From: a virus
Taxonomy: Duplodnaviria; Heunggongvirae; Uroviricota; Caudoviricetes
DNA: 64,000 nucleotides
Reading direction: 5' to 3' (one strand)
IMG/VR virus record: IMGVR_UViG_2740892441_000001
Below, piece after piece: positions 12,560 through 56,160 of the stretch. Made by a program: the position numbers and the translations under genes. Numbering within the stretch: position 1 is the first letter of the stretch; every line of letters starts with the position of its first letter. The notes beneath the pieces are model-generated. The model did not search any database. It was not told where the DNA came from and worked only from the letters and a program-made list of their open reading frames with translations.

Positions 12560-13662
12560 TATATTTTTTCTCCCTGCTGCGCTGCTGTTAATTCCCTGTG
12601 CCAGATACGCAAATTTCGGACGTGCCCGAACAGATGGCGGCTGCCACTGGACGCCTTTCCACCGATAGTGATGAATCCACCAGTGTACTTCTGATTTTGA
12701 TATGCTGAAGTTGTCAATGCCCCGAAAACACCATTGACAACAACTTGCAACCTTCTGTCTTCCGAAAATAAAAAACCAACGATATTATGGCGCTTAGTTC
12801 TTGCAAGAGTACTATTATACTCTTTAATGGCATTTGAGTCGCCGTTTGTGATTATCGCTTTATTACCACGAGTAGCAAAACCAAGGTACATATAACTTTG
12901 ATTTATTATATCTGTGGAATCTCCCGTTGTTGTTATATCCAGAATCCTTGCTCCACCAGTAATATTAGGCATAAAGCCAGGTTCCCATAGTGTATTTACT
13001 TCAACAAGACAACTTATTGCAGGAGTTGACCAGTTTAATTTTACAGGGACAGTAACCATATCACTGGCTCTTGTTGCACCAGTTCCCGACGTAATGATAA
13101 ATGATGACGCATGAGTTCCCTTTTCAAACTGAGGGGTGGTCATCATTATCTGGTCTCCGGCCTGTATGGAACGCCCGTCCGCAGCTATCTCAAAACGAGC
13201 GTGAATACTTTTCGGTTCTGGTGATTTATATGTAAATTCGATGCGTAACCATCCGTTAGCTTCTCTGTATATGACATGATTGACAGCATCCTCACCATTC
13301 GGAATTTTTAATATTTCTCCGGTGCCGCAATCTATATATGACTCAGCAACCAGTGTGTTGCTTGTTCCGTCATCGTTCACATAAGCTACGCGAGGTCTGA
13401 TTAATATATCAGTCCCTTTAACACGGCACGAAAGTGTAACTGATTCATTTGCATCAACACTGATTACACGGGGATAACCACTCGTAATTAATGTCGCCCG
13501 GCCATCCAACGGAGTTCCCGTAACCGTGAATGTTCCATATGTAAACCCATACCCGTCAGTTTCACTAGTCACCGATAATGCAGATTTCAGATAATTCCAT
13601 AAGGATGGTGTATTACTATAATAAAGTGTGTTTGTTCTCTGCCCCTCTATTAACAACCCCAT
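12559..13662 (-). CDS. tail fibre / receptor-binding candidate
   Basis: 367-aa Thr/Ser/Gly-rich beta-type ORF within tail-fibre cluster. Confidence 0.45.
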   Translation of the reverse strand: MGLLIEGQRTNTLYYSNTPSLWNYLKSALSVTSETDGYGFTYGTFTVTGTPLDGRATLITSGYPRVISVDANESVTLSCRVKGTDILIRPRVAYVNDDGTSNTLVAESYIDCGTGEILKIPNGEDAVNHVIYREANGWLRIEFTYKSPEPKSIHARFEIAADGRSIQAGDQIMMTTPQFEKGTHASSFIITSGTGATRASDMVTVPVKLNWSTPAISCLVEVNTLWEPGFMPNITGGARILDITTTGDSTDIINQSYMYLGFATRGNKAIITNGDSNAIKEYNSTLARTKRHNIVGFLFSEDRRLQVVVNGVFGALTTSAYQNQKYTGGFITIGGKASSGSRHLFGHVRNLRIWHRELTAAQQGEKI

Positions 13663-34853: not shown

Positions 34854-36110
34854 CTATCGAGAACCACCAAGAATAACACGGTTTTTGACTGGATACCTAC
34901 GATGTACTGGATAGCCCAATGCGTCTGCACTATGCTCAATGCCACCTGTCTTATCCATATCTCGTGTTCCAGGCTTGTAGATGACCTTTTCCAGTGAATC
35001 AATCAAATGCTTGCACTTCGGATCGATATACAGCCGGATATCTCCAGATGCGGTCATCAGCATTCGGTTAACAGCATTAACACGATCCGCAATTGGCGGG
35101 TGCTTTTTCGAATAATCGACACGTAAGAATCCCTTCTCTTTGAATATGTCTACGTCAGACTCCCCGCGAGCATGTTGGCGATAAGCACCTGCCGGATCTG
35201 GAAATACCGTTATCTGTGATTTCCAGCGCCAGAAGCGCCTCTCAAGCTCATCACAAACCTCTGCCGTGTTAGAGGAAAAGAGCACCAATTCATCAATTGC
35301 CCATAGCTCACCATTTGGCTGAGGTTGCAAAATTACGGAAGACATCGGGTCAATGTTGAAGTCCTGTCCTACCCATATAGGCAACCGAGGGTTGAACTGA
35401 AGCGGTTTAACATGCACGTTTCGATCGAACGGGTAGTAAACGCGCCCGGACATATTTTCAAAGCTGGCCAGGTACTCCTGAGCGAACGATTTAGGGTCCA
35501 TATCGTTCTTAGCAGCTTCAATTTCCGCCGTAGGCACAAACGGCGAATCAGCAGTTACAAACTGCCAGCTCTTCCACTGTCCCTTTCTTTGCAGCTCTAC
35601 GTTCTGGCCTATAGTCCACAGTTTGTGAAATTCCGAGAAGCCTTTTGGCGTACCAATGATCAGTGCACCGCCGCGTGTCGATGAAAGAGTAGGTCGTAAC
35701 ACCTTGTACCAGGTGTCAGCCTTCATATCCTGAAATTCATCAAGCACTACAAAATGCAACGCTACGCCGCGCAGAGTGTCAGGTTTATCAGCACCTTTGA
35801 GGGCGATCTCCGAACCGTTCTTCAACACGATTGTCATCGTGGTGTCGTTCTTTTTCCTAACCCACTTACGGGGCAGAACTTCCTGTAGATCGTCCCACAA
35901 AATCTGGCGAGCCATCTGGTAAGTAGGAGCGACATACCAGACCCTTTGCTTTTTTTCCTTTGCCGCCGCACGAATAATAGTGGAGATCGACAACCGGGAT
36001 TTTCCCCAGCGTCGACCAGCACAAACAACTTTAAATCGATGCGGAGACTGGAAGACTTTCATCTGTCCAGAATGCAGTTGCACAAGACTGAGCGAGGACG
36101 GGATTGCCAT
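34854..36110 (-). CDS. terminase large subunit
   Basis: 418-aa ORF; Walker A VVCAGRRWGKS; C-terminal nuclease-type acidic residues. Confidence 0.8.
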   Translation of the reverse strand: MAIPSSLSLVQLHSGQMKVFQSPHRFKVVCAGRRWGKSRLSISTIIRAAAKEKKQRVWYVAPTYQMARQILWDDLQEVLPRKWVRKKNDTTMTIVLKNGSEIALKGADKPDTLRGVALHFVVLDEFQDMKADTWYKVLRPTLSSTRGGALIIGTPKGFSEFHKLWTIGQNVELQRKGQWKSWQFVTADSPFVPTAEIEAAKNDMDPKSFAQEYLASFENMSGRVYYPFDRNVHVKPLQFNPRLPIWVGQDFNIDPMSSVILQPQPNGELWAIDELVLFSSNTAEVCDELERRFWRWKSQITVFPDPAGAYRQHARGESDVDIFKEKGFLRVDYSKKHPPIADRVNAVNRMLMTASGDIRLYIDPKCKHLIDSLEKVIYKPGTRDMDKTGGIEHSADALGYPVHRRYPVKNRVILGGSR

Positions 36111-36742
36111 TATTCGTCCTCCCCTTCACTTCCATCATCTGTCGCATCAAATTCGCTTAGAGCTTCTTCTTCCAACGTCTCAAGCAATTCGTCATCGATG
36201 ATTTCAGGCTCGTCGTCTTCCTGACGTAATTTCGCCACCTGGGAAGGCGTAAGCTCACCAAATACCAGGTTCGGAATTTCTTCCTCGTCATTTTCCGCAT
36301 GATCCATGCCCAATGCTTTGGACGAAACTTCAAAGCATTTTGCAAGGGTATTACTGGCTCTCTGTAAGCTCTTGAGAGAACCCTCAATCGCCCCTAAAGG
36401 CTTACCCTCACGTTTGGCCGTAGTGACTTCGACCATCACCATCTGCCCCAACGCATACGCCCAGCCGTCATAACGTGTACGACGTTCTTCTATCTTTTCC
36501 GCACGGGCTTTAGCGCGAAGCTCTGCGTCAGATTTAAGAGACTCACGAACCATCTTCCCAACAGAGTCCGCGCCTTTCTCTAATCCTCGCTTTTTGAAAT
36601 GTCTGGAGAGTGTTTCACGACGAATGCCGTACTCTTCCTCCAGCTTTGAGAGTGTATATTCGCCTGACGTCCATTTGGCTTCAGCTTCGGCCCACTCCGC
36701 TGGTGTCAGGCGAGTTTTTACCTCGTCTTTTTCGACAGTCAT
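36110..36742 (-). CDS. terminase small subunit candidate
   Basis: 210-aa ORF immediately upstream of and overlapping terminase large subunit; acidic C-terminal tail. Confidence 0.5.
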   Translation of the reverse strand: MTVEKDEVKTRLTPAEWAEAEAKWTSGEYTLSKLEEEYGIRRETLSRHFKKRGLEKGADSVGKMVRESLKSDAELRAKARAEKIEERRTRYDGWAYALGQMVMVEVTTAKREGKPLGAIEGSLKSLQRASNTLAKCFEVSSKALGMDHAENDEEEIPNLVFGELTPSQVAKLRQEDDEPEIIDDELLETLEEEALSEFDATDDGSEGEDE

Positions 36743-36782
36743 AGATCCCTCTAAAACACACAGAGCGCGTCCATGCGCTCTA

Positions 36783-36836
36783 AAACAACTTGTTTACTGC
36801 ATCTGCTAACCAACTTGTTTTCTGGTGTGTCTAATT
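36783..36836 (-). promoter_or_regulatory. two tandem copies of conserved motif upstream of terminase small subunit
   Basis: aaacaacttgtttactgcatctgctaaccaacttgttttctggtgtgtctaatta. Confidence 0.4.
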
Positions 36837-36936
36837 AGGTCTGGGCATGTCTTACTAAGCCTGCTTCCGTATATATTTAATAAGTTACTTATTATTTATA
36901 TATACGGAAGCAGGTCTTTAAATAACGTCCCAGACC
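36836..36936. repeat. ~100-bp nested palindrome upstream of terminase small subunit (candidate cos/pac or late operator)
   Basis: Arms ggtctggg / cccagacc and cctgcttccgtatata / tatatacggaagcagg around an AT-rich core taagttactta. Confidence 0.5.
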
Positions 36937-36938
36937 GA

Positions 36939-37205
36939 TTACATCACCAGTAACTTCGCTTTGGCTCGACCTAAAGTGGTTAACCCAAGAGTCCGGCGGT
37001 GATAGCGATTGTCACTGCGTTGGCGCGTATGCCCTTTCTCCACCAGCCCCTTTTTTATCAGAGCGCGAATTGAGAACTGGATACTTTGCTTTGTTGTCTT
37101 GTACGGCAAAACTTCAAGCAATTCGTCCAGATCAAGTAGATGACCTCGCTCATAACCGAGATTGAGCGTTTTGATGATGTCCTTTTGTTTGTCGGTTAAC
37201 GTCAT
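36939..37205 (-). CDS. small DNA-binding protein candidate
   Basis: 88-aa basic ORF with helix-turn-helix-like segment. Confidence 0.35.
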   Translation of the reverse strand: MTLTDKQKDIIKTLNLGYERGHLLDLDELLEVLPYKTTKQSIQFSIRALIKKGLVEKGHTRQRSDNRYHRRTLGLTTLGRAKAKLLVM

Positions 37206-37214
37206 GGCAAATCC

Positions 37215-38105
37215 TTATGCCGGTAAAGCAATTTCTAACGGTTTATCCAAAGGTTGTTTGTCGAATGCCAGCAGTGGCAGCGTGTCAGGCAGTCGACGAC
37301 CAAAGTCAGGGTTTCGATACACACCATACAACGGAGACGTAAAGCTCAGGTTGTGAATGTCCTTGAGCAGCTTCACAATGCTGGCCTCGTCCACCAGACT
37401 GTCGGCAATGTCCTGAATCGTCGTGCCACGATTCCGCCCAGCTTTTGCCAGGGAACTGTTCTTGTGGTAGTCCGCCACCAGATCACGCAGTGCACGGCGA
37501 CGACGTGACTCGCTCATTGCGAACAACTCTTTGACGATCGCCTCGTTATCACCCGGGTCGGAGCGGAAATGGCGCTGGAACACACGCAGTGCACTTTCAT
37601 AGCTCTTCGGTCGCTCAGGGCGGATGAACTTGAACCCTGCTTTCATGGCGAAGGGATTGTATTTGCTCATCGAGGATTGGATCTCAATGATTGGCCGGTC
37701 ATGCATCCTGCTAACCAGGTTAATCATTCGATAAGAGACGCCTACGCCACGGTACTGAGTATCCACAACTGAGCGGCTGATCACCGCAAAGTTGTTATTC
37801 ACGTACCGGCCCCAGTACTGGTTAGCCACGGTGGTATTGGTGGTTGGTTTCAACTTAGGAAACATGCGATGGCGAGGTGCCAGCAGAAGTTTCGGGTAAG
37901 CCATAACCACGACGCCCACCAGACGGTCATCCAGTTCGCAGCGATAGTATGTTGGCGCGAAAGGTTTGCCGTCTGTTTTGTAGTGAAGCGACTTAAGAGC
38001 GTGCCAGTCCTCTACAGTTCCCTTTGTGACAGTCATTCGCTCCAGAAAGTCCAGATGACGCGGAAACTCTTCAGGGCGGTAGCGTTTAATGATGATGTCC
38101 GTCAT
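37215..38105 (-). CDS. GNAT-fold protein with C-terminal extension
   Basis: 296-aa ORF; GNAT-like motif VDTQYRGVGVSYRMI. Confidence 0.4.
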   Translation of the reverse strand: MTDIIIKRYRPEEFPRHLDFLERMTVTKGTVEDWHALKSLHYKTDGKPFAPTYYRCELDDRLVGVVVMAYPKLLLAPRHRMFPKLKPTTNTTVANQYWGRYVNNNFAVISRSVVDTQYRGVGVSYRMINLVSRMHDRPIIEIQSSMSKYNPFAMKAGFKFIRPERPKSYESALRVFQRHFRSDPGDNEAIVKELFAMSESRRRRALRDLVADYHKNSSLAKAGRNRGTTIQDIADSLVDEASIVKLLKDIHNLSFTSPLYGVYRNPDFGRRLPDTLPLLAFDKQPLDKPLEIALPA

Positions 38106-38767
38106 GAATGGACCTCATCATAACTACCATTGTGATATTCCACCTTCACGCGTTCTTTGTAGTGCTTGGTGATCTGCATATCCGGGCGCAGCGCGTTCTT
38201 CAGGTCTTCGTGAGTCGTCGCCACCATTACCGTCGCACCAACCTTTCGAGCGGCACGCTGGAGGTTAGATGCCACAACCTGAGCGGTTACACGGTCTAGA
38301 ACAGCACCGAACTCGTCAGCAGCCCACACTTTAGCGCCTGACTCAATCAGTTTGGCAATCTTGAGACGATATTTCTGACCGTCTGACATTTCAGAAGGCT
38401 TGCGAACAAACAGATATGCATCGTTCAGACCTGCCATAGATAACAACCCAAGCGCATCACTGGTAGTTTTGCCCAGTTGGTCAATGACGTTAACCTCATT
38501 ATCGAAGGTAAAGTCATCAATAGAAGCTACAGAAAGCCCTTCATCCTTCATCTGGCGTTGCAACTCGCGCAACACAACGGATTTACCTGAACCGGATTGG
38601 CCGGTGATGTACACCACATCGCCCTGCTTCACTTCCAGCTCCAGATTGTCGTAAAGCGTCCACTCTTTTTCGTCCAGGCCAAGCCCGAACGACTCAGCGA
38701 TTTCCAACGTGCGCGTGGTTTTATTTACGCGTGTCTGAAACGATACGTTGATGATGTATTTGCTCAT
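38102..38767 (-). CDS. ABC-type ATPase
   Basis: 221-aa ORF; Walker A GQSGSGKS, signature-like SDGQKYR, Walker B VWAADEF, H-loop TTHE. Confidence 0.6.
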   Translation of the reverse strand: MSKYIINVSFQTRVNKTTRTLEIAESFGLGLDEKEWTLYDNLELEVKQGDVVYITGQSGSGKSVVLRELQRQMKDEGLSVASIDDFTFDNEVNVIDQLGKTTSDALGLLSMAGLNDAYLFVRKPSEMSDGQKYRLKIAKLIESGAKVWAADEFGAVLDRVTAQVVASNLQRAARKVGATVMVATTHEDLKNALRPDMQITKHYKERVKVEYHNGSYDEVHS

Positions 38768-39465
38768 GCAGCCATCTCCCCGGAAGAGATCTTCTCCGCA
38801 TATGCCACAAATGCGTCTACCCCGCTTTCTCCCGTCATTTCTTCCATGTGGGCAAGCAAATCACCAACAACAATGGCAGAGCCAGCAGGGAGCGTTTTAA
38901 AGCCCAATACGTCGATAACACGTACTTCTTCCGCTGCAACTTCACGACTGATCTCGGTGTGTTCATCCTTCTGTCGTTTAGTTTCTTCGCCCAGATCGAT
39001 AACTAGCGAGTCGGTGTCCATTTCTTCTGTCATGCTGCCAACGAGAACATTCAACTCCCGCTCTTCAAAGCCGAAAACCTCGATATCGTCCAGAACAAGC
39101 GACTCAAGTTCTTTCTGTAGCTTAATTGCATCGTAATCAATGCTGGCAAGTCGGTTATCTTCAAGGCGCTTCGCACGAACCTCGTCATCACTGAGATCAT
39201 CGCGAACAATAACCGGTACGCGCTCAAGTCCAGCAAAAATTGCAGCCTCACGGCGGCCGTGGCCAGTAATAATTACGTCGTTCTTATCGACCGTAATTGG
39301 CTGGTCAAATCCGCGCTTTTTAATGGCTGCGGCCAGATCTCGGATCTGCTGTTCATCATGCTTTTTGGCATTCATCTCATAGGGAATAAGATCTGCCGGG
39401 TCGCGATATACGATTTCAAACTTTTTGGTCATTACATACACTCCTTGTAGTAGTCGACCAGCCAC
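38764..39465 (-). CDS. ParB/Srx-fold domain protein
   Basis: 233-aa ORF; ITGHGRREAA motif typical of ParB N-terminal domain. Confidence 0.5.
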   Translation of the reverse strand: MAGRLLQGVYVMTKKFEIVYRDPADLIPYEMNAKKHDEQQIRDLAAAIKKRGFDQPITVDKNDVIITGHGRREAAIFAGLERVPVIVRDDLSDDEVRAKRLEDNRLASIDYDAIKLQKELESLVLDDIEVFGFEERELNVLVGSMTEEMDTDSLVIDLGEETKRQKDEHTEISREVAAEEVRVIDVLGFKTLPAGSAIVVGDLLAHMEEMTGESGVDAFVAYAEKISSGEMAA

Positions 39466-40112
39466 ACCAGAGCCTCACCAGCGTTCTCCATTTCATTACC
39501 GGTGTTAATAGCCTGCTCTTTGATGATGTTTTTTATGGTTTCTGCAACACGATCTGACGCATCGAAAGTTACTTTGAAGCGCATGGTCTGATGTTCCGCA
39601 CCCACACGTTCGGTTTTCTCTCGTTTGTCGGTATCGACAGGCTCATCACTACCACGAGACAACGCCTCCAGTGCTTCAAGGTCGATTGCCGCCTCTTTTG
39701 CTAAAACCATCGAGATTTCGTCGTCATACGGGGCGATTTCAGACAGTTGATAGTCAAGTTCTGACTGAATTTCTTCAATGAAGCGTTGCAATGCGATTTG
39801 GTCGTCTTCACCGTATCGCTCGTTGTCCACTAGTGACATCTGTTTAGCTACGACATCGCTAATTTTGCCCACAGAAAGCACCGGAACCGTTGAAATTCCT
39901 TGCTCAATAGCAGCACGCCAGCGATGTTCGCCGCCGAGGATTTCAAAAAATCCATCTTCAAGTTCACGAGCCAAAATTGGCTTAAAAAAGCCCAATTTTT
40001 CGATAGAACCTTTCAGTTTTTCAAAATTCTGCGCACCAACCGAATTGGTGTTCCAGGTATTCGGGCGAAGGTTGGCAACATCAACCTGCAAAATCGTGAT
40101 TTTTACATCCAT
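39432..40112 (-). CDS. ParB/Srx-fold domain protein
   Basis: 226-aa ORF; ILGGEHRWRAA motif. Confidence 0.5.
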   Translation of the reverse strand: MDVKITILQVDVANLRPNTWNTNSVGAQNFEKLKGSIEKLGFFKPILARELEDGFFEILGGEHRWRAAIEQGISTVPVLSVGKISDVVAKQMSLVDNERYGEDDQIALQRFIEEIQSELDYQLSEIAPYDDEISMVLAKEAAIDLEALEALSRGSDEPVDTDKREKTERVGAEHQTMRFKVTFDASDRVAETIKNIIKEQAINTGNEMENAGEALVWLVDYYKECM

Positions 40113-40194
40113 TTTATTGCTACAATCAACTAAGTAATTACTTACTTATTATAATAGCCAAATAACATACAAAAGGCACTAAGGAAAGAGGTTT

Positions 40195-41754
40195 ATGACT
40201 GTTCGGATTGTATCTAACGCAGTAAATGCGCTTATTTCTGGCGCAGATGACAAGGTAAAGCAACTGGTGCAACAGATGTTGAGCTACGAAGTCGAGACTG
40301 GCGACTGGAAAGGCACAAGCACGATGTTCAACTGGAGTAAAAACTCGTTCCCTGCTGGCTTTGCCAAGCCTGTAGCGGCGAACTTGAACAAGGCGGGCAT
40401 CAAATGTGTTCATATCCGCAAAGACAAAGCCCCGGCGCTTGGAAAGCCAAATCCGGCGGTTAACCCATTCCCATACAATCCTGATTATGCGTATCAGGAT
40501 CAGACTGTGGAAACGCTAGTTCGCGAGGGAATGATGATTGCGCAGATCGCTACTGGTGGCGGAAAATCTAATGTTGCCTGCAAAGCAGCTGCACGTATCG
40601 GTCGAATGACATTATTTTTAACAACCCGCTCTGTTCTGATGTTTCAGATGGCCGAAAACTTCCAGAGATCCATCGACTACCGCGCCGAAAATGGCGAACC
40701 GTGGTTAAAAGACCAAAAGGTTGGAGTAATTGGCTCGGGTGAGTTCCAGGTATCGCGACATATCAACGTTGCTACAGTTCAAACTCTTGCAAGTTTCCTC
40801 GAAGAACCACCACGCGATGCAACACCAGATAAGAAAAGCTACCACCTCAAACGTCGGGAGTTGGTGAAACGCTTCCTTTCAAGTGTCTCTCTTCTTATTC
40901 TGGAAGAGGCGCATGAGTCTTCAGGCTCTAATTTCTATGACATTGCCAGATTATGTGCGAACGCAGACTATCGCCTGGCGCTTACGGCAACGCCGTTCAT
41001 GAAGGATTCTACGGAAGCCAACATGCGTCTGATGGCTGTGGCCGGGCGAATTGAAATAAAAGTCACGGAAAAGTACCTGATTGATAAAGGCATTCTGGCA
41101 AAGCCATACTTCCTTTATCATAAAGTTGCCTACAAACCGGACGAGGTCAGAATCAAGGCAGAACTTGCTAACAAACACCTCAATTTTAGAGTAGGTATGA
41201 GCACTGCCTACCAAAAGGCTTATCAGTTGGGGATCGTGTATAATTTGGGACGTAACGAGGCCATTGTGCGCGAAGCATTGCTCTATAAGCAACACTCTCT
41301 CAACTGCATGACTCTGGTTCGTCTTAAACGCCACGGGCAAATCCTGATGGAGATGATGAAGGAGTCCGGTCTTAGAGTTGACTTCATCTATGGGGAATCG
41401 AACCAGGCGACAAGGCAAGCAAAGCTGAACAGTTTAGCGTCTGGTGAAATAGATGTTTTAATAGGCTCGACTATTCTGGATGTCGGTGTTGATGTGCCAA
41501 GCGTTGGTGCGGTCATTCTTGCTGGTGGCGGGAAAGCAGAAGTTGAAATGAGACAACGTGTCGGTCGTGGCTTACGAGCCAAGAAGAATCAGGCAAACGT
41601 GTGTTTTATCACTGATTTCATTGACATTAGCAACAAATACCTGTTGTCTCACTCTTATGAGCGAAAACACATCATCGACACTACACCTGGCTTTGCAGAA
41701 GGTGTATTGCCTATTGATGGCGCATTCGATTTTGGAGTTCTGAAACGAGATTAG
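40195..41754 (+). CDS. superfamily 2 helicase (DEAH-type)
   Basis: 519-aa ORF; motif I ATGGGKSN, motif II LEEAHE, motif III LTATP, motif VI QRVGRGLR. Confidence 0.7.
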   Translation: MTVRIVSNAVNALISGADDKVKQLVQQMLSYEVETGDWKGTSTMFNWSKNSFPAGFAKPVAANLNKAGIKCVHIRKDKAPALGKPNPAVNPFPYNPDYAYQDQTVETLVREGMMIAQIATGGGKSNVACKAAARIGRMTLFLTTRSVLMFQMAENFQRSIDYRAENGEPWLKDQKVGVIGSGEFQVSRHINVATVQTLASFLEEPPRDATPDKKSYHLKRRELVKRFLSSVSLLILEEAHESSGSNFYDIARLCANADYRLALTATPFMKDSTEANMRLMAVAGRIEIKVTEKYLIDKGILAKPYFLYHKVAYKPDEVRIKAELANKHLNFRVGMSTAYQKAYQLGIVYNLGRNEAIVREALLYKQHSLNCMTLVRLKRHGQILMEMMKESGLRVDFIYGESNQATRQAKLNSLASGEIDVLIGSTILDVGVDVPSVGAVILAGGGKAEVEMRQRVGRGLRAKKNQANVCFITDFIDISNKYLLSHSYERKHIIDTTPGFAEGVLPIDGAFDFGVLKRD

Positions 41755-45579: not shown

Positions 45580-45600
45580 GTTTCCAATACTCCCACCATA

Positions 45601-45627
45601 ACGCGCCATCATTGGCGCGTTTTTTAT
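45601..45627 (+). terminator. rho-independent terminator
   Basis: Hairpin acgcgccatcattggcgcgt plus T6. Confidence 0.55.
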
Positions 45628-45984
45628 TGTCTTTAACTCACTCCAACAACATAAAAATAAGCGCCAAAATAACGCCATAGACGCGATTTTATATCCTCGC
45701 CAGTACATACCCATTACTTAACACATTAACGCGCTTAAAACGCGTTATATTGCGCTATAGAGTATGGTTAATCGTTGGCTTTTAGTCTTGCTTTATGATC
45801 CGCGTTTATTTGTCGGCGCGGATCGGCATTTTGTTTTGTTCCGTATCCGCTCGCGTATTATGTGCGCGTGATTTTTCACATAATCACACCACTTAATCAC
45901 GTATGTGATTATGCTACGAAAGAAATCTGGATGTCTCAGGCGACGAAAGTCATCATAATTTTCCCCGCTCACCTGTCCGACAAC

Positions 45985-46648: not shown

Positions 46649-46669
46649 GATTATTTCCTTATCGTAAAT

Positions 46670-46702
46670 AACAAATTGTTTTCTTGTTGGTGTTAATTAT
46701 CG
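46670..46702 (-). promoter_or_regulatory. conserved early promoter/operator motif
   Basis: aacaaattgttttcttgttggtgttaattatcg, one of at least 9 near-identical copies upstream of minus-strand genes. Confidence 0.5.
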
Positions 46703-47134: not shown

Positions 47135-47154
47135 GAGCATATCCTCACTGCGTA

Positions 47155-47186
47155 AACATATTGTTTTCTTGTTGGTGTAATTATCG
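47155..47186 (-). promoter_or_regulatory. conserved early promoter/operator motif
   Basis: acatattgttttcttgttggtgtaattatcgc. Confidence 0.45.
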
Positions 47187-48820: not shown

Positions 48821-48832
48821 CACAACTCCGTA

Positions 48833-48870
48833 AACAACTTGTTTTCTCAATGGCGTAAATAATACCAGTA
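48833..48870 (-). promoter_or_regulatory. conserved early promoter/operator motif
   Basis: aacaacttgttttctcaatggcgtaaataatacc. Confidence 0.45.
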
Positions 48871-49303: not shown

Positions 49304-49659
49304 AAATCAATCCTTAAACAACATGTTTTCTTATTGGTGTTATTATCGCAATAACGCATAGGCGAAAAAGGATTTTATTCCGGTGAATGTGGTTTTGGCA
49401 GTGAGTTTTCAGGTTCAGTACCGAGTACACTTTTTACATTATTCTGATTTAGTAGCCGAAGGTGGCTGGTGGGCAGAATAATCATCTCCCCGAAAACCTA
49501 CTGAAATCGATTGTGACCCGCTGACTGTCTGGCACAATTACGCTGTAGTTGGGCATTCAGAGGGAATCCAGCGGTAAGTAAGTTCGCCTGCACGTGAGCG
49601 CCTCTCTTCTTCCCGCACATTACAGGTGGATAGCCGCAACTCTCCCTCTCGCTATACCG

Positions 49660-50465: not shown

Positions 50466-50866
50466 TTTGGGAATGGCATATGCGTTATTTAGTTGTTTTG
50501 TTATGCCTGAAAATAAGTTGTTTATATGGTTATGTAACGCAACGGGAACGATTTTGAGCGTGTGTTTTTGTTGGTAGTGTGTTGGGTCGTCTGTGGTGAA
50601 AATTGGACGCTGTGGCGCTGTCTGCTGCGTAGGATTGCGGGTATAAGAAGTAATGTGTGAAAACGTCAATTTTTTAGACCAAATCGGGTGAAAGCGTTGA
50701 CGTTTCGTTGATCTGTTATTCAGTTGTTTTCTTGTTTGTATAAACAACTATAACCTATTGATATTTAAGGGTGTGATTGCAGGTATGGAAGGGGAGTAGT
50801 GGCGATCAACGGATTCTTATAGAAAAGAATCAAATTGTGACCGCCATTATCAATAAGTTGCAACCG

Positions 50867-52123: not shown

Positions 52124-52188
52124 AAACAATTTGTTTTCTTATGTGGCTTATTATCTCAATCAACAAAAGGCAGAAAACAAATTGTTTT
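52124..52188 (-). promoter_or_regulatory. conserved early promoter/operator motif (two half-copies)
   Basis: aaacaatttgttttcttatgtggcttattatc and aaaaggcagaaaacaaattgtttt. Confidence 0.45.
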
Positions 52189-56028: not shown

Positions 56029-56160
56029 TACATGAAAGAAACCCACTTAGTGCAACCGATCGAGACTCTTCACCAAACAAAAATATTTTTCTCAAATAAG
56101 AAAAGGCAGAAAACAAATTGTTTAAGGCCACTAGTTGTGGCCTTAATGGGGGAGGGGTGC

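What the first reader, a model, noticed from the sequence alone, without database searches (positions are those of the whole stretch)
36836..36936. Large nested palindrome upstream of the terminase small subunit, with a second degenerate copy at 7030-7100
Outer arms ggtctggg/cccagacc and inner arms cctgcttccgtatata/tatatacggaagcagg surround an AT-rich core. Its position just 5' of the packaging genes suits a cos/pac site or late-operon control element; the copy near parA could link partition and packaging or be a second regulator binding site.
Basis: partly seen in the sequence, partly recalled or inferred. Interest (0 to 1): 0.5.

Follow-up and report, generated by a model that had tools for sequence, protein, structure and literature searches.

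The report
Three-copy palindromic boundary element in phage-plasmid
The large palindrome upstream of the terminase genes is real. It is one of three conserved copies that sit at the junctions between the three big gene blocks of SSU5-like phage-plasmids, so it looks like a transcription boundary or regulator docking site rather than a unique DNA-packaging (cos) site.

Summary
The nested palindrome at 36838-36936 is confirmed (DNA fold z = -9.4), and so is the second copy (arms 7039-7093, whole unit about 7015-7115). The window is an SSU5/pHCM2-type phage-plasmid. Complete relatives carry three copies at fixed syntenic places: A (gp88 -> terS), B (parA/p119 plus cargo -> p249/DnaB/primase) and C (Dam -> p76; outside this window). 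These bound three co-directional gene blocks. The 14-bp arms CCTGCTTCYGTATA are 92-99% identical across genera and across the three copies. The flanks are about 50% identical between copies. The core is A+T-rich and varies in length. The virulent Pseudomonas phage nickie, a distant relative, has an analogous three-copy palindrome at the same positions, so the element is not a plasmid centromere. Only the SSU5 record ends support a cos site. The Cyrano ends follow a convention, draft assemblies do break inside this palindrome, and a relative's termini were called long direct terminal repeats (DTRs). At copy B, published RNA-seq shows expression falling about 9-fold across the palindrome. B and C are followed by T-runs, and the two mismatches in window copy B become G.U pairs in the sense RNA. 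Best reading (about 40%): a sequence-specifically recognised terminator or insulator gate. Main rival: lytic replication origins. No published description was found in the held literature.

The parts
36838..36936 (.). Copy A of the nested palindromic boundary element (whole unit)
   Evidence: Present upstream of terS in 71 of 72 SSU5-type loci, centred 122-146 bp before the start codon.
36838..36845 (.). Copy A outer arm GGTCTGGG (partner CCCAGACC at 36929-36936)
   Evidence: Partly conserved in copies B and C.
36860..36875 (.). Copy A inner arm CCTGCTTCCGTATATA
   Evidence: Arm positions 1-14 carry about 2 bits each across 64 unique sequences.
36876..36898 (.). Copy A core, A+T only, itself quasi-palindromic. 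The SSU5 and Cyrano GenBank records open here (between 36876 and 36878).
   Evidence: Core length varies from 20 to 25 bp and mean A+T is 89% across relatives.
36899..36914 (.). Copy A inner arm TATATACGGAAGCAGG
36929..36936 (.). Copy A outer arm CCCAGACC, 2 nt from the stop codon of gp88
7015..7115 (.). Copy B of the element (whole unit, with partial outer arms GTTCTGG at 7015-7021 and CCAGACC at 7109-7115)
7039..7093 (-). Copy B inner palindrome. The two DNA mismatches become G.U pairs in the sense (minus-strand) RNA.
   Evidence: RNA fold -26.3 kcal/mol, z -7.9, against a DNA plus-strand fold of -7.6.
7027..7038 (-). T-run tail (UCUUUUAAAAGA) directly after the copy B hairpin in the sense direction
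   Evidence: T-rich tails follow B copies in nearly all lineages, with a mean of 5.8 T in 9 nt.
36110..36742 (-). Putative small terminase subunit, first gene downstream of copy A
   Evidence: phrog_867 'DNA binding domain'. Annotated TerS in Cyrano.
34854..36110 (-). Large terminase subunit
   Evidence: Pfam Terminase_6N, Terminase_3 and Terminase_6C. Best PDB match is the Thermus phage P74-26 TerL ATPase, 4zni.
36939..37205 (-). gp88, an 88-aa probable winged-helix protein and last gene before copy A. Candidate binder.
   Evidence: Weak Sta1/Lrs14 hits. 31% identical to nickie gp154 in the same position.
7483..8151 (-). Type Ib ParA ATPase
   Evidence: Pfam AAA_31, MipZ, CbiA and ParA
7124..7483 (-). 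p119, probable ribbon-helix-helix (RHH) partner of ParA and last gene before copy B in this window
   Evidence: Weak RHH hit to the aCcr1 family; phrog_5111
6182..6931 (-). p249, first gene downstream of copy B, followed by a DnaB-like helicase (4798-6138) and a primase-like ORF (3523-4788)

Best explanation
The palindrome is copy A of a roughly 100-bp boundary element of SSU5-type phage-plasmids. Each genome carries three copies (A and B in this window, C just outside it).

Position. Each copy fills the short gap between the stop codon of the last gene of one co-directional gene block and the first gene of the next:
- accessory/early-like block -> A -> packaging, head, tail, lysis and par;
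- that block -> B -> p249, DnaB, primase, polymerase, recombination and nucleotide metabolism;
- that block -> C.

Proposed mechanism. The inverted 14-bp arms around an A+T-rich spacer are transcribed into a long hairpin. The RNA is essentially the same whichever strand is read. The hairpin ends or insulates the upstream transcription unit. At B, and at C in relatives, it is followed by a U-run and acts as an intrinsic terminator. This shields lytic genes from read-through, for example from the par/cargo operon that is expressed in the lysogen.

The arm sequence, and not only its pairing, is held constant in all three copies and across genera. I therefore infer that a phage-encoded factor recognises the hairpin or its DNA sequence-specifically. 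That factor could be an antiterminator or another regulator. Candidates are the adjacent winged-helix gp88, the terS product and the ParB-like proteins. On this reading the three sites would work as regulated gates between blocks.

Shown: the anatomy, copy number, synteny, conservation pattern, T-runs, and the expression drop across B in a close relative.
Inferred: termination at these hairpins, the existence of a specific binding factor, and gating.
For: - Three copies at fixed positions. PhiR41_1 has copies at 13435-13487, 45582-45636 and 75115-75169. Of 105 palindromes in IMG/VR loci, 33 are A, 36 are B and 36 are C, each with the same neighbours.
- Tight packing after the upstream gene. 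The stop codon of the upstream gene lies 2-10 nt from the outer arm. The centre lies 122-148 bp before the next start codon.
- Arms conserved as sequence. Arms are 92-99% identical within and between copy classes. Flanks are 73-84% identical within a class (54% for the cargo-disrupted left flank of B) and about 50% between classes. Arm positions carry about 2 bits each.
- T-runs. The sense-strand tail is T-rich after B (5.8 of 9) and C (5.5 of 9) but not after A (3.1 of 9).
- Cyrano/pLF82 lysogen RNA-seq. Normalised counts are parA 50, the p119 homologue 89 and CYRAN_30 55, then the p249 homologue 6, which is background. Palindrome B followed by TCTTTTAAAG is the only hairpin in that 194-bp gap.
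- Copy B as RNA. Both mismatches in window copy B are G.U pairs in the sense RNA (-26.3 kcal/mol). The sense RNA is the more stable in 18 of 21 unique B sequences.
- Cargo placement. Cargo genes are inserted upstream of B and are expressed with the par operon.
- More distant relatives. Morganella-type relatives carry a canonical GC hairpin with a T-run at the B position.
Against: - Copy A has no U-run, and a separate canonical terminator-like hairpin lies 60-80 bp downstream of it.
- The nickie copies lack U-runs, and nickie site 3 does not fold at all (z +0.97). This points to arm recognition on DNA rather than to an RNA hairpin.
- C copies are on average more stable as antisense RNA.
- A plain terminator does not need a conserved arm sequence or an A+T-rich spacer.
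- No 3'-end mapping exists, and no binding protein has been identified.
- The RNA-seq drop at B is gene-level and comes from a relative, not from this element.
Confidence: 0.4

Rival explanations
1. Lytic replication origins. Each copy would be an origin in which an initiator binds the two inverted arms and melts the A+T-rich spacer. The design resembles herpes simplex oriS/oriL, and the use of several dispersed origins resembles SPP1 oriL/oriR.
For: - Conserved inverted arms flank an A+T-rich spacer of 20-25 bp; mean A+T is 89%, and it is 100% in copy A of this window.
- One copy lies directly upstream of the p249-DnaB-primase cluster in both SSU5-type phages and nickie.
- The element is conserved in a virulent relative, so it serves a lytic-cycle function.
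- The copies are spaced about a third of the genome apart.
- Arms conserved as sequence fit recognition by a protein.
- Nickie site 3 keeps the arms without any hairpin.
Against: - GC skew shows no inflection at any copy, though this test is weak in a genome transcribed in one direction.
- The tight position after stop codons, the constant distance to the next start codon and the T-runs at B and C are not expected of origins.
- pMT1, which is maintained only as a plasmid, keeps a perfect copy A.
Confidence: 0.25
2. Packaging recognition or cleavage site at copy A (a cos site, a pac site or a DTR boundary). Copies B and C would then be non-functional or differently used relatives.
For: - The linear SSU5 record begins and ends inside the core of copy A.
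- The position just upstream of terS is typical of cos sites (established knowledge from lambda and HK97).
- Copy A alone lacks a T-run and alone has extra repeats between it and terS.
Against: - Three near-identical copies per genome.
- The joined SSU5 ends restore an intact 55-bp palindrome, with no duplicated or missing bases.
- Cyrano is a re-annotated plasmid opened at the same point as SSU5, with which the authors compare it, so its ends are not independent evidence.
- A draft contig starts inside the core of copy B, so assembly breaks do occur inside this palindrome.
- The nickievirus Nican01 was called 'DTR (long)', not cos.
- I could not obtain the SSU5 genome paper, so I do not know how its ends were defined.
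Confidence: 0.13
3. Programmed hairpin or break sites. The palindromes extrude as hairpins or cruciforms and are cut by the phage's own SbcCD-like nuclease. This creates ends that start T4-style recombination-dependent replication.
For: - Cyrano is annotated with SbcC-like, SbcD-like, UvsX/RecA, UvsY, gp32-like, UvsW and RuvC genes.
- Nickie has RecA, exonucleases, RuvC and a Gam-like end protector.
- The design, a near-perfect palindrome with an A+T centre, favours extrusion.
- The SSU5 record breaks inside the core.
Against: - The case is purely circumstantial.
- Nickie site 3 cannot form a hairpin.
- A palindrome of 55-100 bp is short for efficient SbcCD cleavage (my own knowledge of the E. 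coli work).
- Nothing here was tested.
Confidence: 0.07
4. Dispersed partition centromeres, like the sopC-type sites scattered in phage-plasmid N15, bound by the ParA/p119 system.
For: - In this window copy B lies 8 nt after the p119 stop codon, next to parA.
- Dispersed centromeres that also affect late genes are known for N15 (my own knowledge; I did not check it against a paper here).
Against: - In many relatives cargo genes separate par from copy B, and the palindrome stays with p249.
- pMT1 uses a different ParAB system and keeps a perfect copy A.
- Phage nickie is virulent, has no parA annotated and has the same three-site layout.
- p119 looks like an RHH protein. RHH centromere binders usually bind short iterated repeats (established knowledge).
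Confidence: 0.04
5. Selfish miniature palindromic repeat (MITE, Correia or REP-like) with no function for the phage.
For: About 100 bp, terminal inverted repeats, no coding capacity, an intergenic location and an IHF-like near-match in the core.
Against: - The same three syntenic positions are occupied in more than 100 loci, with no presence/absence polymorphism.
- Analogous sites with a different sequence occupy the same positions in nickie.
- No extra copies occur elsewhere in the genomes examined.
Confidence: 0.04

Closest known systems
Lambda-type cos site (cosQ-cosN-cosB upstream of the small terminase gene)
   Same: It lies just upstream of terS, has partial two-fold symmetry and has an IHF-like near-match in the A+T core. 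One phage record (SSU5) opens inside it.
   Different: There are three copies per genome. The SSU5 junction shows no overhang signature. A relative with a homologous terminase was called long-DTR. No end mapping exists.
Intrinsic terminators and repeated regulatory stem-loop cassettes of phages (for example the PeSL promoter/stem-loop cassettes of T4-type phages; recalled from memory, not checked here)
   Same: It is a repeated intergenic stem-loop at module boundaries. B and C are followed by U-runs, and expression drops across B.
   Different: The stem is much longer (16 bp plus 7 bp). The arm sequence is conserved across genera. The spacer is A+T-rich. There are exactly three syntenic copies. 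No promoter consensus was found next to it.
Lambda nut / HK022 put type sequence-specific RNA hairpins at the start of long operons
   Same: A sequence-conserved hairpin recurs at the head of each long co-directional gene block. This would explain conservation of the arm sequence and not only of the pairing.
   Different: No antiterminator has been identified. The hairpin is far larger than boxB. The transcription start sites are unknown. The link is an inference only.
Herpes simplex oriS/oriL and SPP1 oriL/oriR (palindromic or multi-copy viral origins)
   Same: Inverted binding sites flank an A+T-rich spacer, several dispersed copies exist, and one copy adjoins replication genes.
   Different: No initiator is known and no replication mapping exists. 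The position hard against stop codons and the T-runs are not features of origins.
Dispersed centromere or operator palindromes (N15 sopC-like sites; RK2 KorB operators)
   Same: A few identical palindromes are scattered through a plasmid or phage genome upstream of operons.
   Different: The element does not track the partition system (pMT1, nickie, cargo insertions). The arms are separated by 24-29 bp instead of forming a compact 13-16-bp palindrome.
Bacterial palindromic intergenic repeats (Correia elements, RIP/BIME, ERIC)
   Same: Similar size, terminal inverted repeats and an A+T/IHF-like centre, with terminator or mRNA-end effects when transcribed.
   Different: The positions are fixed and syntenic rather than scattered. 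The element has co-evolved within one phage lineage.

Membership tests
cos site (cohesive-end packaging site) | Virion DNA ends map to the site with a defined overhang | tested here: inconclusive
   The SSU5 record ends fall in the core of copy A, but the junction is seamless. The Cyrano ends are a convention. An assembly break occurs inside copy B in a draft genome. No end-mapping data are held.
cos site (cohesive-end packaging site) | A single recognition and cleavage site per genome | tested here: not met
   Complete relatives carry three near-identical copies, and this window carries two.
cos site (cohesive-end packaging site) | Terminase lineage that makes cohesive ends | tested here: inconclusive
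   Pfam Terminase_6N/3/6C hits and the best PDB hit, the P74-26 TerL ATPase, do not indicate the end type. The nickievirus Nican01 was called 'DTR (long)' by PhageTerm, while a TerL tree placed the nickievirus psageB1 with 3' cos phages.
Intrinsic (Rho-independent) terminator | Stable stem-loop followed at once by a U-run on the transcribed strand | tested here: met
   Met for copy B in this window (RNA fold -26.3 kcal/mol, then UCUUUU) and for B and C across lineages. Not met for copy A, whose tail has 3.1 T in 9 nt.
Intrinsic (Rho-independent) terminator | Lies after the last gene of a transcription unit, and transcript level falls across it | tested here: met
   The stop codons lie 2-10 nt from the outer arm. 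In the Cyrano lysogen RNA-seq, counts fall from 55 to 6 across copy B. This is gene-level evidence from a relative. There is no information for A or C, because both flanks are silent.
Plasmid partition centromere (parS/parC; N15-type dispersed sites) | Co-inherited with, and specific to, the partition protein pair | tested here: not met
   pMT1 has a different ParAB and keeps copy A. Nickie has no parA annotated and keeps three sites. Cargo separates par from copy B.
Plasmid partition centromere (parS/parC; N15-type dispersed sites) | Bound by the centromere-binding protein | not testable with these tools
   Needs EMSA or ChIP with p119.
Viral or plasmid replication origin with a DNA-unwinding element | A+T-rich unwinding element flanked by repeated initiator sites | tested here: met
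   Met at sequence level only: an A+T-rich core of 20-25 bp between conserved inverted 14-bp arms.
Viral or plasmid replication origin with a DNA-unwinding element | Replication starts there and an initiator binds | not testable with these tools
   GC skew is uninformative. The p249 fold search gave no significant match.
MITE / REP-like mobile palindromic repeat | Variable insertion positions and presence/absence among related genomes | tested here: not met
   All 105 copies fall into three syntenic contexts. Copy A is present in 71 of 72 terS loci, and the one exception is a truncated contig.
Protelomerase target (telRL-type palindrome of linear phage-plasmids) | A protelomerase gene and hairpin telomeres | tested here: not met
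   No protelomerase appears in the annotations of PhiR41_1 or Cyrano. The relatives are circular records.

The most novel reading that the evidence does not exclude
The three palindromes are the lytic-cycle replication start sites of a large, clinically widespread group of phage-plasmids. They could be true origins melted between the inverted arms. Alternatively they could be programmed hairpin or break sites processed by the phage's own SbcCD/UvsX-type machinery to start recombination-dependent replication. Either way the multi-palindrome design would be conserved from enterobacterial phage-plasmids to virulent Pseudomonas phages.
Probability: 0.3. Interest if true: 0.75.

Novelty: new variant of a known kind. 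Interest (0 to 1): 0.45.

Why it matters
SSU5/pHCM2/pMT1-type phage-plasmids are common in clinical Escherichia, Klebsiella, Enterobacter, Salmonella and Yersinia. In PLSDB, 800 records match this element. These plasmids carry resistance and virulence cargo, yet little of their control circuitry is described in the literature held here.

A three-copy, sequence-conserved element at the junctions of the genome's three gene blocks gives a concrete handle on several questions:
- how lytic genes are kept silent next to genes expressed in the lysogen;
- where cargo can insert and still be expressed;
- where lytic replication or packaging may start.

There is also a practical point. The palindrome breaks assemblies and has set the 'ends' of reference records. 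Those ends should not be read as physical termini.

Tried and rejected
- Cyrano record ends. I first took the SSU5 and Cyrano ends as two independent mappings of virion ends. I rejected this because Cyrano is the re-annotated plasmid pLF82.
- Literature. Searches for SSU5 with cohesive ends, cos, PhageTerm or palindromes found nothing relevant. The SSU5 genome note and Gilcrease & Casjens 2018 are not held.
- Rfam. No family matched anywhere in the window.
- Promoters. The sigma-70 scan found no promoter-like site at A or at Cyrano B and only weak 9/12 matches near window B and C. By eye I found no correctly spaced sigma-54, T4 MotA-box or LexA-box pattern. The arm CTGTATATA resembles half a LexA box, but the halves are about 37 bp apart.
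- G.U strand-bias test for an RNA hairpin. The bias favours the sense strand at B, is neutral at A and is reversed at C, so there is no uniform signal.
- GC skew. The profile is monotonic and uninformative.
- Genome-contig scan with a TerS alignment. It returned only 4 close relatives.
- Stenotrophomonas phage BUCTxx99. It has only a weak 9-nt inverted repeat upstream of terS, and I did not pursue it.
- pMT1 having a single copy. This proved trivial, because the B and C regions are deleted there.

Full report
**Observation**

- The outer arms GGTCTGGG (36838-36845) and CCCAGACC (36929-36936) enclose the inner arms.
- The inner arms are CCTGCTTCCGTATATA (36860-36875) and its exact complement (36899-36914).
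- Between the inner arms lies a 23-bp core made only of A and T. The core is itself nearly palindromic.
- As single-stranded DNA the 103-nt unit folds at -28.3 kcal/mol, against -6.9 +/- 2.3 for shuffles (z -9.4). The 55-mer gives z -11.
- The 16-mer arm occurs four times in the window at up to 3 mismatches, only at this locus and at 7039-7093. The expected count is 0.27, and none of 100 shuffles reaches four.
- The second copy has two mismatches in one arm and partial outer arms, so the whole unit spans about 7015-7115.

**What the window is**

The window is 98-99% identical around the locus to Escherichia phage-plasmids CMS-2020a and PhiR41_1, and about 80-88% identical to the Klebsiella members and to Salmonella phage SSU5. 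This is the SSU5/pHCM2 group.

Almost all genes in the window run on the minus strand.
- Copy A lies between the stop codon of an 88-aa probable winged-helix protein (gp88, 36939-37205) and the putative small terminase (36110-36742). The small terminase abuts the large terminase (34854-36110).
- Copy B lies between p119, a probable RHH partner of a type Ib ParA (7124-7483 and 7483-8151), and p249 (6182-6931). A DnaB-like helicase and a primase-like ORF follow p249.

**A three-copy family at fixed positions**

The complete relative PhiR41_1 has three copies, at 13.4, 45.6 and 75.1 kb. By alignment, the third copy would lie near window coordinate 69,000, just outside the window.

A scan of IMG/VR with the arm sequence returned 120 loci. 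Of these, 105 carried the full palindrome. A tblastn classification of the flanks put every one into one of three contexts:
- A: gp88 -> palindrome -> terS/terL (33 copies).
- B: parA/p119, often with extra cargo genes -> palindrome -> p249/DnaB/primase (36 copies).
- C: Dam methylase -> palindrome -> p76/RNase H (36 copies).

In all three contexts the upstream gene ends 2-10 nt before the outer arm, and the centre lies 122-148 bp before the next start codon. Copy A is present in 71 of 72 SSU5-type terS loci, and the one exception is a truncated contig.

On the annotated maps the three sites divide the almost wholly co-directional genome into three blocks:
- an accessory or early-like block (C to A);
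- packaging, head, tail, lysis and par (A to B);
- replication, recombination and nucleotide metabolism (B to C).

PLSDB holds 800 plasmids with the element, from Klebsiella, Escherichia, Enterobacter, Yersinia, Salmonella, Citrobacter and Cronobacter.

**Conservation pattern**

- The 14-bp arms CCTGCTTCYGTATA are 92-99% identical within each copy class and between classes.
- The 60-bp flanks are 73-84% identical within a class (54% for the cargo-disrupted left flank of B) and about 50% between classes.
- Arm positions carry about 2 bits each across 64 unique sequences.
- The core stays A+T-rich (mean 89%) but varies in sequence and in length (20-25 bp).
- The outer arms (G)GTCTGG and CCAGAC(C) recur in all three classes, and cargo insertions next to B lie outside the 100-bp unit.
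- Only position 9 varies often (C-G 16, T-G 36, C-A 8, T-A 4). This shows some compensation, but mostly invariance.

This is stronger than a purely structural constraint would give, and it points to sequence-specific recognition. Gene conversion among the copies may also contribute.

**Distant relatives**

- The virulent Pseudomonas phage nickie shares the synteny. Its TerS is 33% identical, its gp154 matches gp88 at 31%, and its gp118 matches p249 at 26%.
- Nickie has an analogous three-copy inverted-repeat element with different arms (CTCTTTCCCT / AGGGAAGAG) around an A+T-rich spacer. The copies lie upstream of terS (7201-7263), upstream of gp118/DnaB (41058-41134) and upstream of gp031 (98098-98160).
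- The third nickie site keeps the arms but cannot fold (z +0.97).
- Other nickie-group contigs have CTGCTTT(T)CCC arms at the terS site, which resemble the SSU5 arms.
- A phage-plasmid whose p249 is 64% identical keeps the CCTGCTTCTGTATA arms.
- Morganella-type relatives (48-50% identical) carry at the B position a different A+T-rich palindrome plus a canonical GC hairpin with a T-run.
- pMT1 of Yersinia pestis keeps a perfect copy A but has lost the B and C regions altogether.

The element is therefore an old feature of the phage backbone and is not tied to the plasmid partition module.

**Is it the cos or pac site?**

The only support is that the linear SSU5 record opens inside the core of copy A. 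Against it:
- Cyrano opens 1 bp away, but it is plasmid pLF82 re-annotated and compared with SSU5. It is not independent evidence.
- The joined SSU5 ends restore an intact 55-bp palindrome, with nothing duplicated or lost.
- In one draft genome a contig starts inside the core of copy B, and a sister contig ends 60 bp beyond it. Assemblers therefore do break inside this palindrome.
- A unique packaging site is hard to reconcile with three near-identical copies.
- For nickieviruses, PhageTerm called Nican01 'DTR (long)', although a TerL tree placed psageB1 with 3' cos phages.

I keep a packaging role for copy A at about 13%.

**Is it a centromere?**

Copy B stays with p249 when cargo is inserted after p119. 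pMT1 and nickie also argue against a centromere. I put this at about 4%.

**Evidence on what it does**

- T-runs. In the sense direction the tail after the hairpin is T-rich at B (5.8 T of 9) and C (5.5) in nearly all lineages, but not at A (3.1).
- Copy B as RNA. The two 'degenerate' positions of window copy B are G.U pairs in the sense RNA. That RNA folds at -26.3 kcal/mol (z -7.9) and is followed by UCUUUU. The sense RNA is the more stable in 18 of 21 unique B sequences.
- No uniform strand bias. A shows no bias, and C shows the opposite bias.
- Expression across B. Published gene-level RNA-seq of the Cyrano lysogen gives parA 50, the p119 homologue 89 and the cargo gene CYRAN_30 55. The p249 homologue is at 6, which is background. 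Palindrome B is the only hairpin in the 194-bp gap.

Copy B therefore behaves as the terminator or insulator between genes expressed in the lysogen and the silent lytic replication genes. Cargo inserted upstream of it is expressed with the par operon. At A and C both flanks are silent in the lysogen, so these data say nothing about them.

**Best explanation and rivals**

My best explanation (about 40%) is a boundary 'gate'. The hairpin closes the upstream transcription unit, and its conserved arm sequence is the target of a phage-encoded factor. The factor could be an antiterminator or another regulator, and gp88 next to copy A is the obvious candidate.

The anatomy, the conservation and the expression drop are shown. 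Termination at the hairpin, the existence of the factor and the gating are inferred.

The main rival (about 25%) is that the three sites are lytic replication origins.
- In favour: inverted arms around an A+T-rich spacer, one copy beside the replication genes, conservation in a virulent relative, and the non-folding nickie site 3.

A more speculative variant (about 7%) notes that these phages encode SbcCD-like, UvsX/Y/W, gp32-like and RuvC proteins. They might cut extruded palindromes to start recombination-dependent replication.

**Novelty**

No Rfam family matches. No paper in the held library describes the element. I rate it a new variant of a known kind, namely a repeated regulatory or terminator palindrome. 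There is a real chance (about 30%) that it is instead a multi-origin or break-site system, which would be more surprising.

Noticed in passing
window 6158-6170, 8187-8199, 36783-36795, 36808-36820, 46669-46681, 47154-47166, 48832-48844, 49316-49328, 50511-50523, 52124-52136, 52175-52187, 56111-56123: A second, unrelated dispersed palindrome, AAACAA-N-TTGTTT. It gives 27 strand matches at up to 2 mismatches against 3.4 expected, and no shuffle of 100 reaches that. Most sites lie 4-65 bp upstream of minus-strand start codons, including parA, the DnaB-like gene and terS, which has two sites. In PhiR41_1 the sites end 13-42 bp before annotated starts. The motif looks like the operator or promoter element of a global regulator. 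It is the only motif shared by the parA and terS upstream regions.
   Followed up: partly
window 36761-36782 (minus strand): A GC hairpin (GAGCGC-atggac-GCGCTC) followed by UGUGUGUUUU lies directly before the terS ribosome-binding site and downstream of the two 13-bp palindromes. It is conserved in SSU5, with a compensating change. This suggests that the late operon is controlled by a leader terminator and antitermination.
   Followed up: partly
window 7124-7483 (minus strand): p119, the gene after parA, gives a weak ribbon-helix-helix hit (aCcr1 family). It is probably the ParG-like centromere-binding partner of the type Ib ParA. Its Cyrano homologue is annotated 'RelE/ParE putative toxin', which looks like a mis-annotation.
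   Followed up: partly
Between p119 and copy B in relatives (for example L006 34232-34999; Cyrano CYRAN_30, L225 1132-1935): The gap between the par operon and palindrome B is a hotspot for variable cargo genes. This window has none there. In the Cyrano lysogen the cargo gene is expressed at the level of the par operon.
   Followed up: partly
window 37215-41754: A conserved gene cluster lies upstream of terS: a divergent DEAD/UvsW-type helicase, two ParB N-terminal-domain proteins, a small ABC-type ATPase, an 'ABC ATPase/acetyltransferase'-annotated protein and gp88. The same order occurs in Pseudomonas phage nickie and Stenotrophomonas phage BUCTxx99. Its function is unknown. It may be linked to packaging or to the palindromes.
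   Followed up: no
L064 1-39 and L127 8397-8451 (IMG/VR genome 2602041547): One draft contig starts inside the core of copy B, and another ends 60 bp past the same palindrome. This shows that the element breaks short-read assemblies. It is relevant to how the SSU5 and Cyrano record 'ends' should be read.
   Followed up: yes
window 8501-8740 and 8748-9269 (plus strand): A small ORF pair lies next to parA. Its counterpart position in Cyrano is annotated as an antitoxin and a KacT-type acetyltransferase toxin, and that pair is strongly expressed in the lysogen. I did not test the identity of the window ORFs.
   Followed up: no
[not shown]
   Followed up: partly
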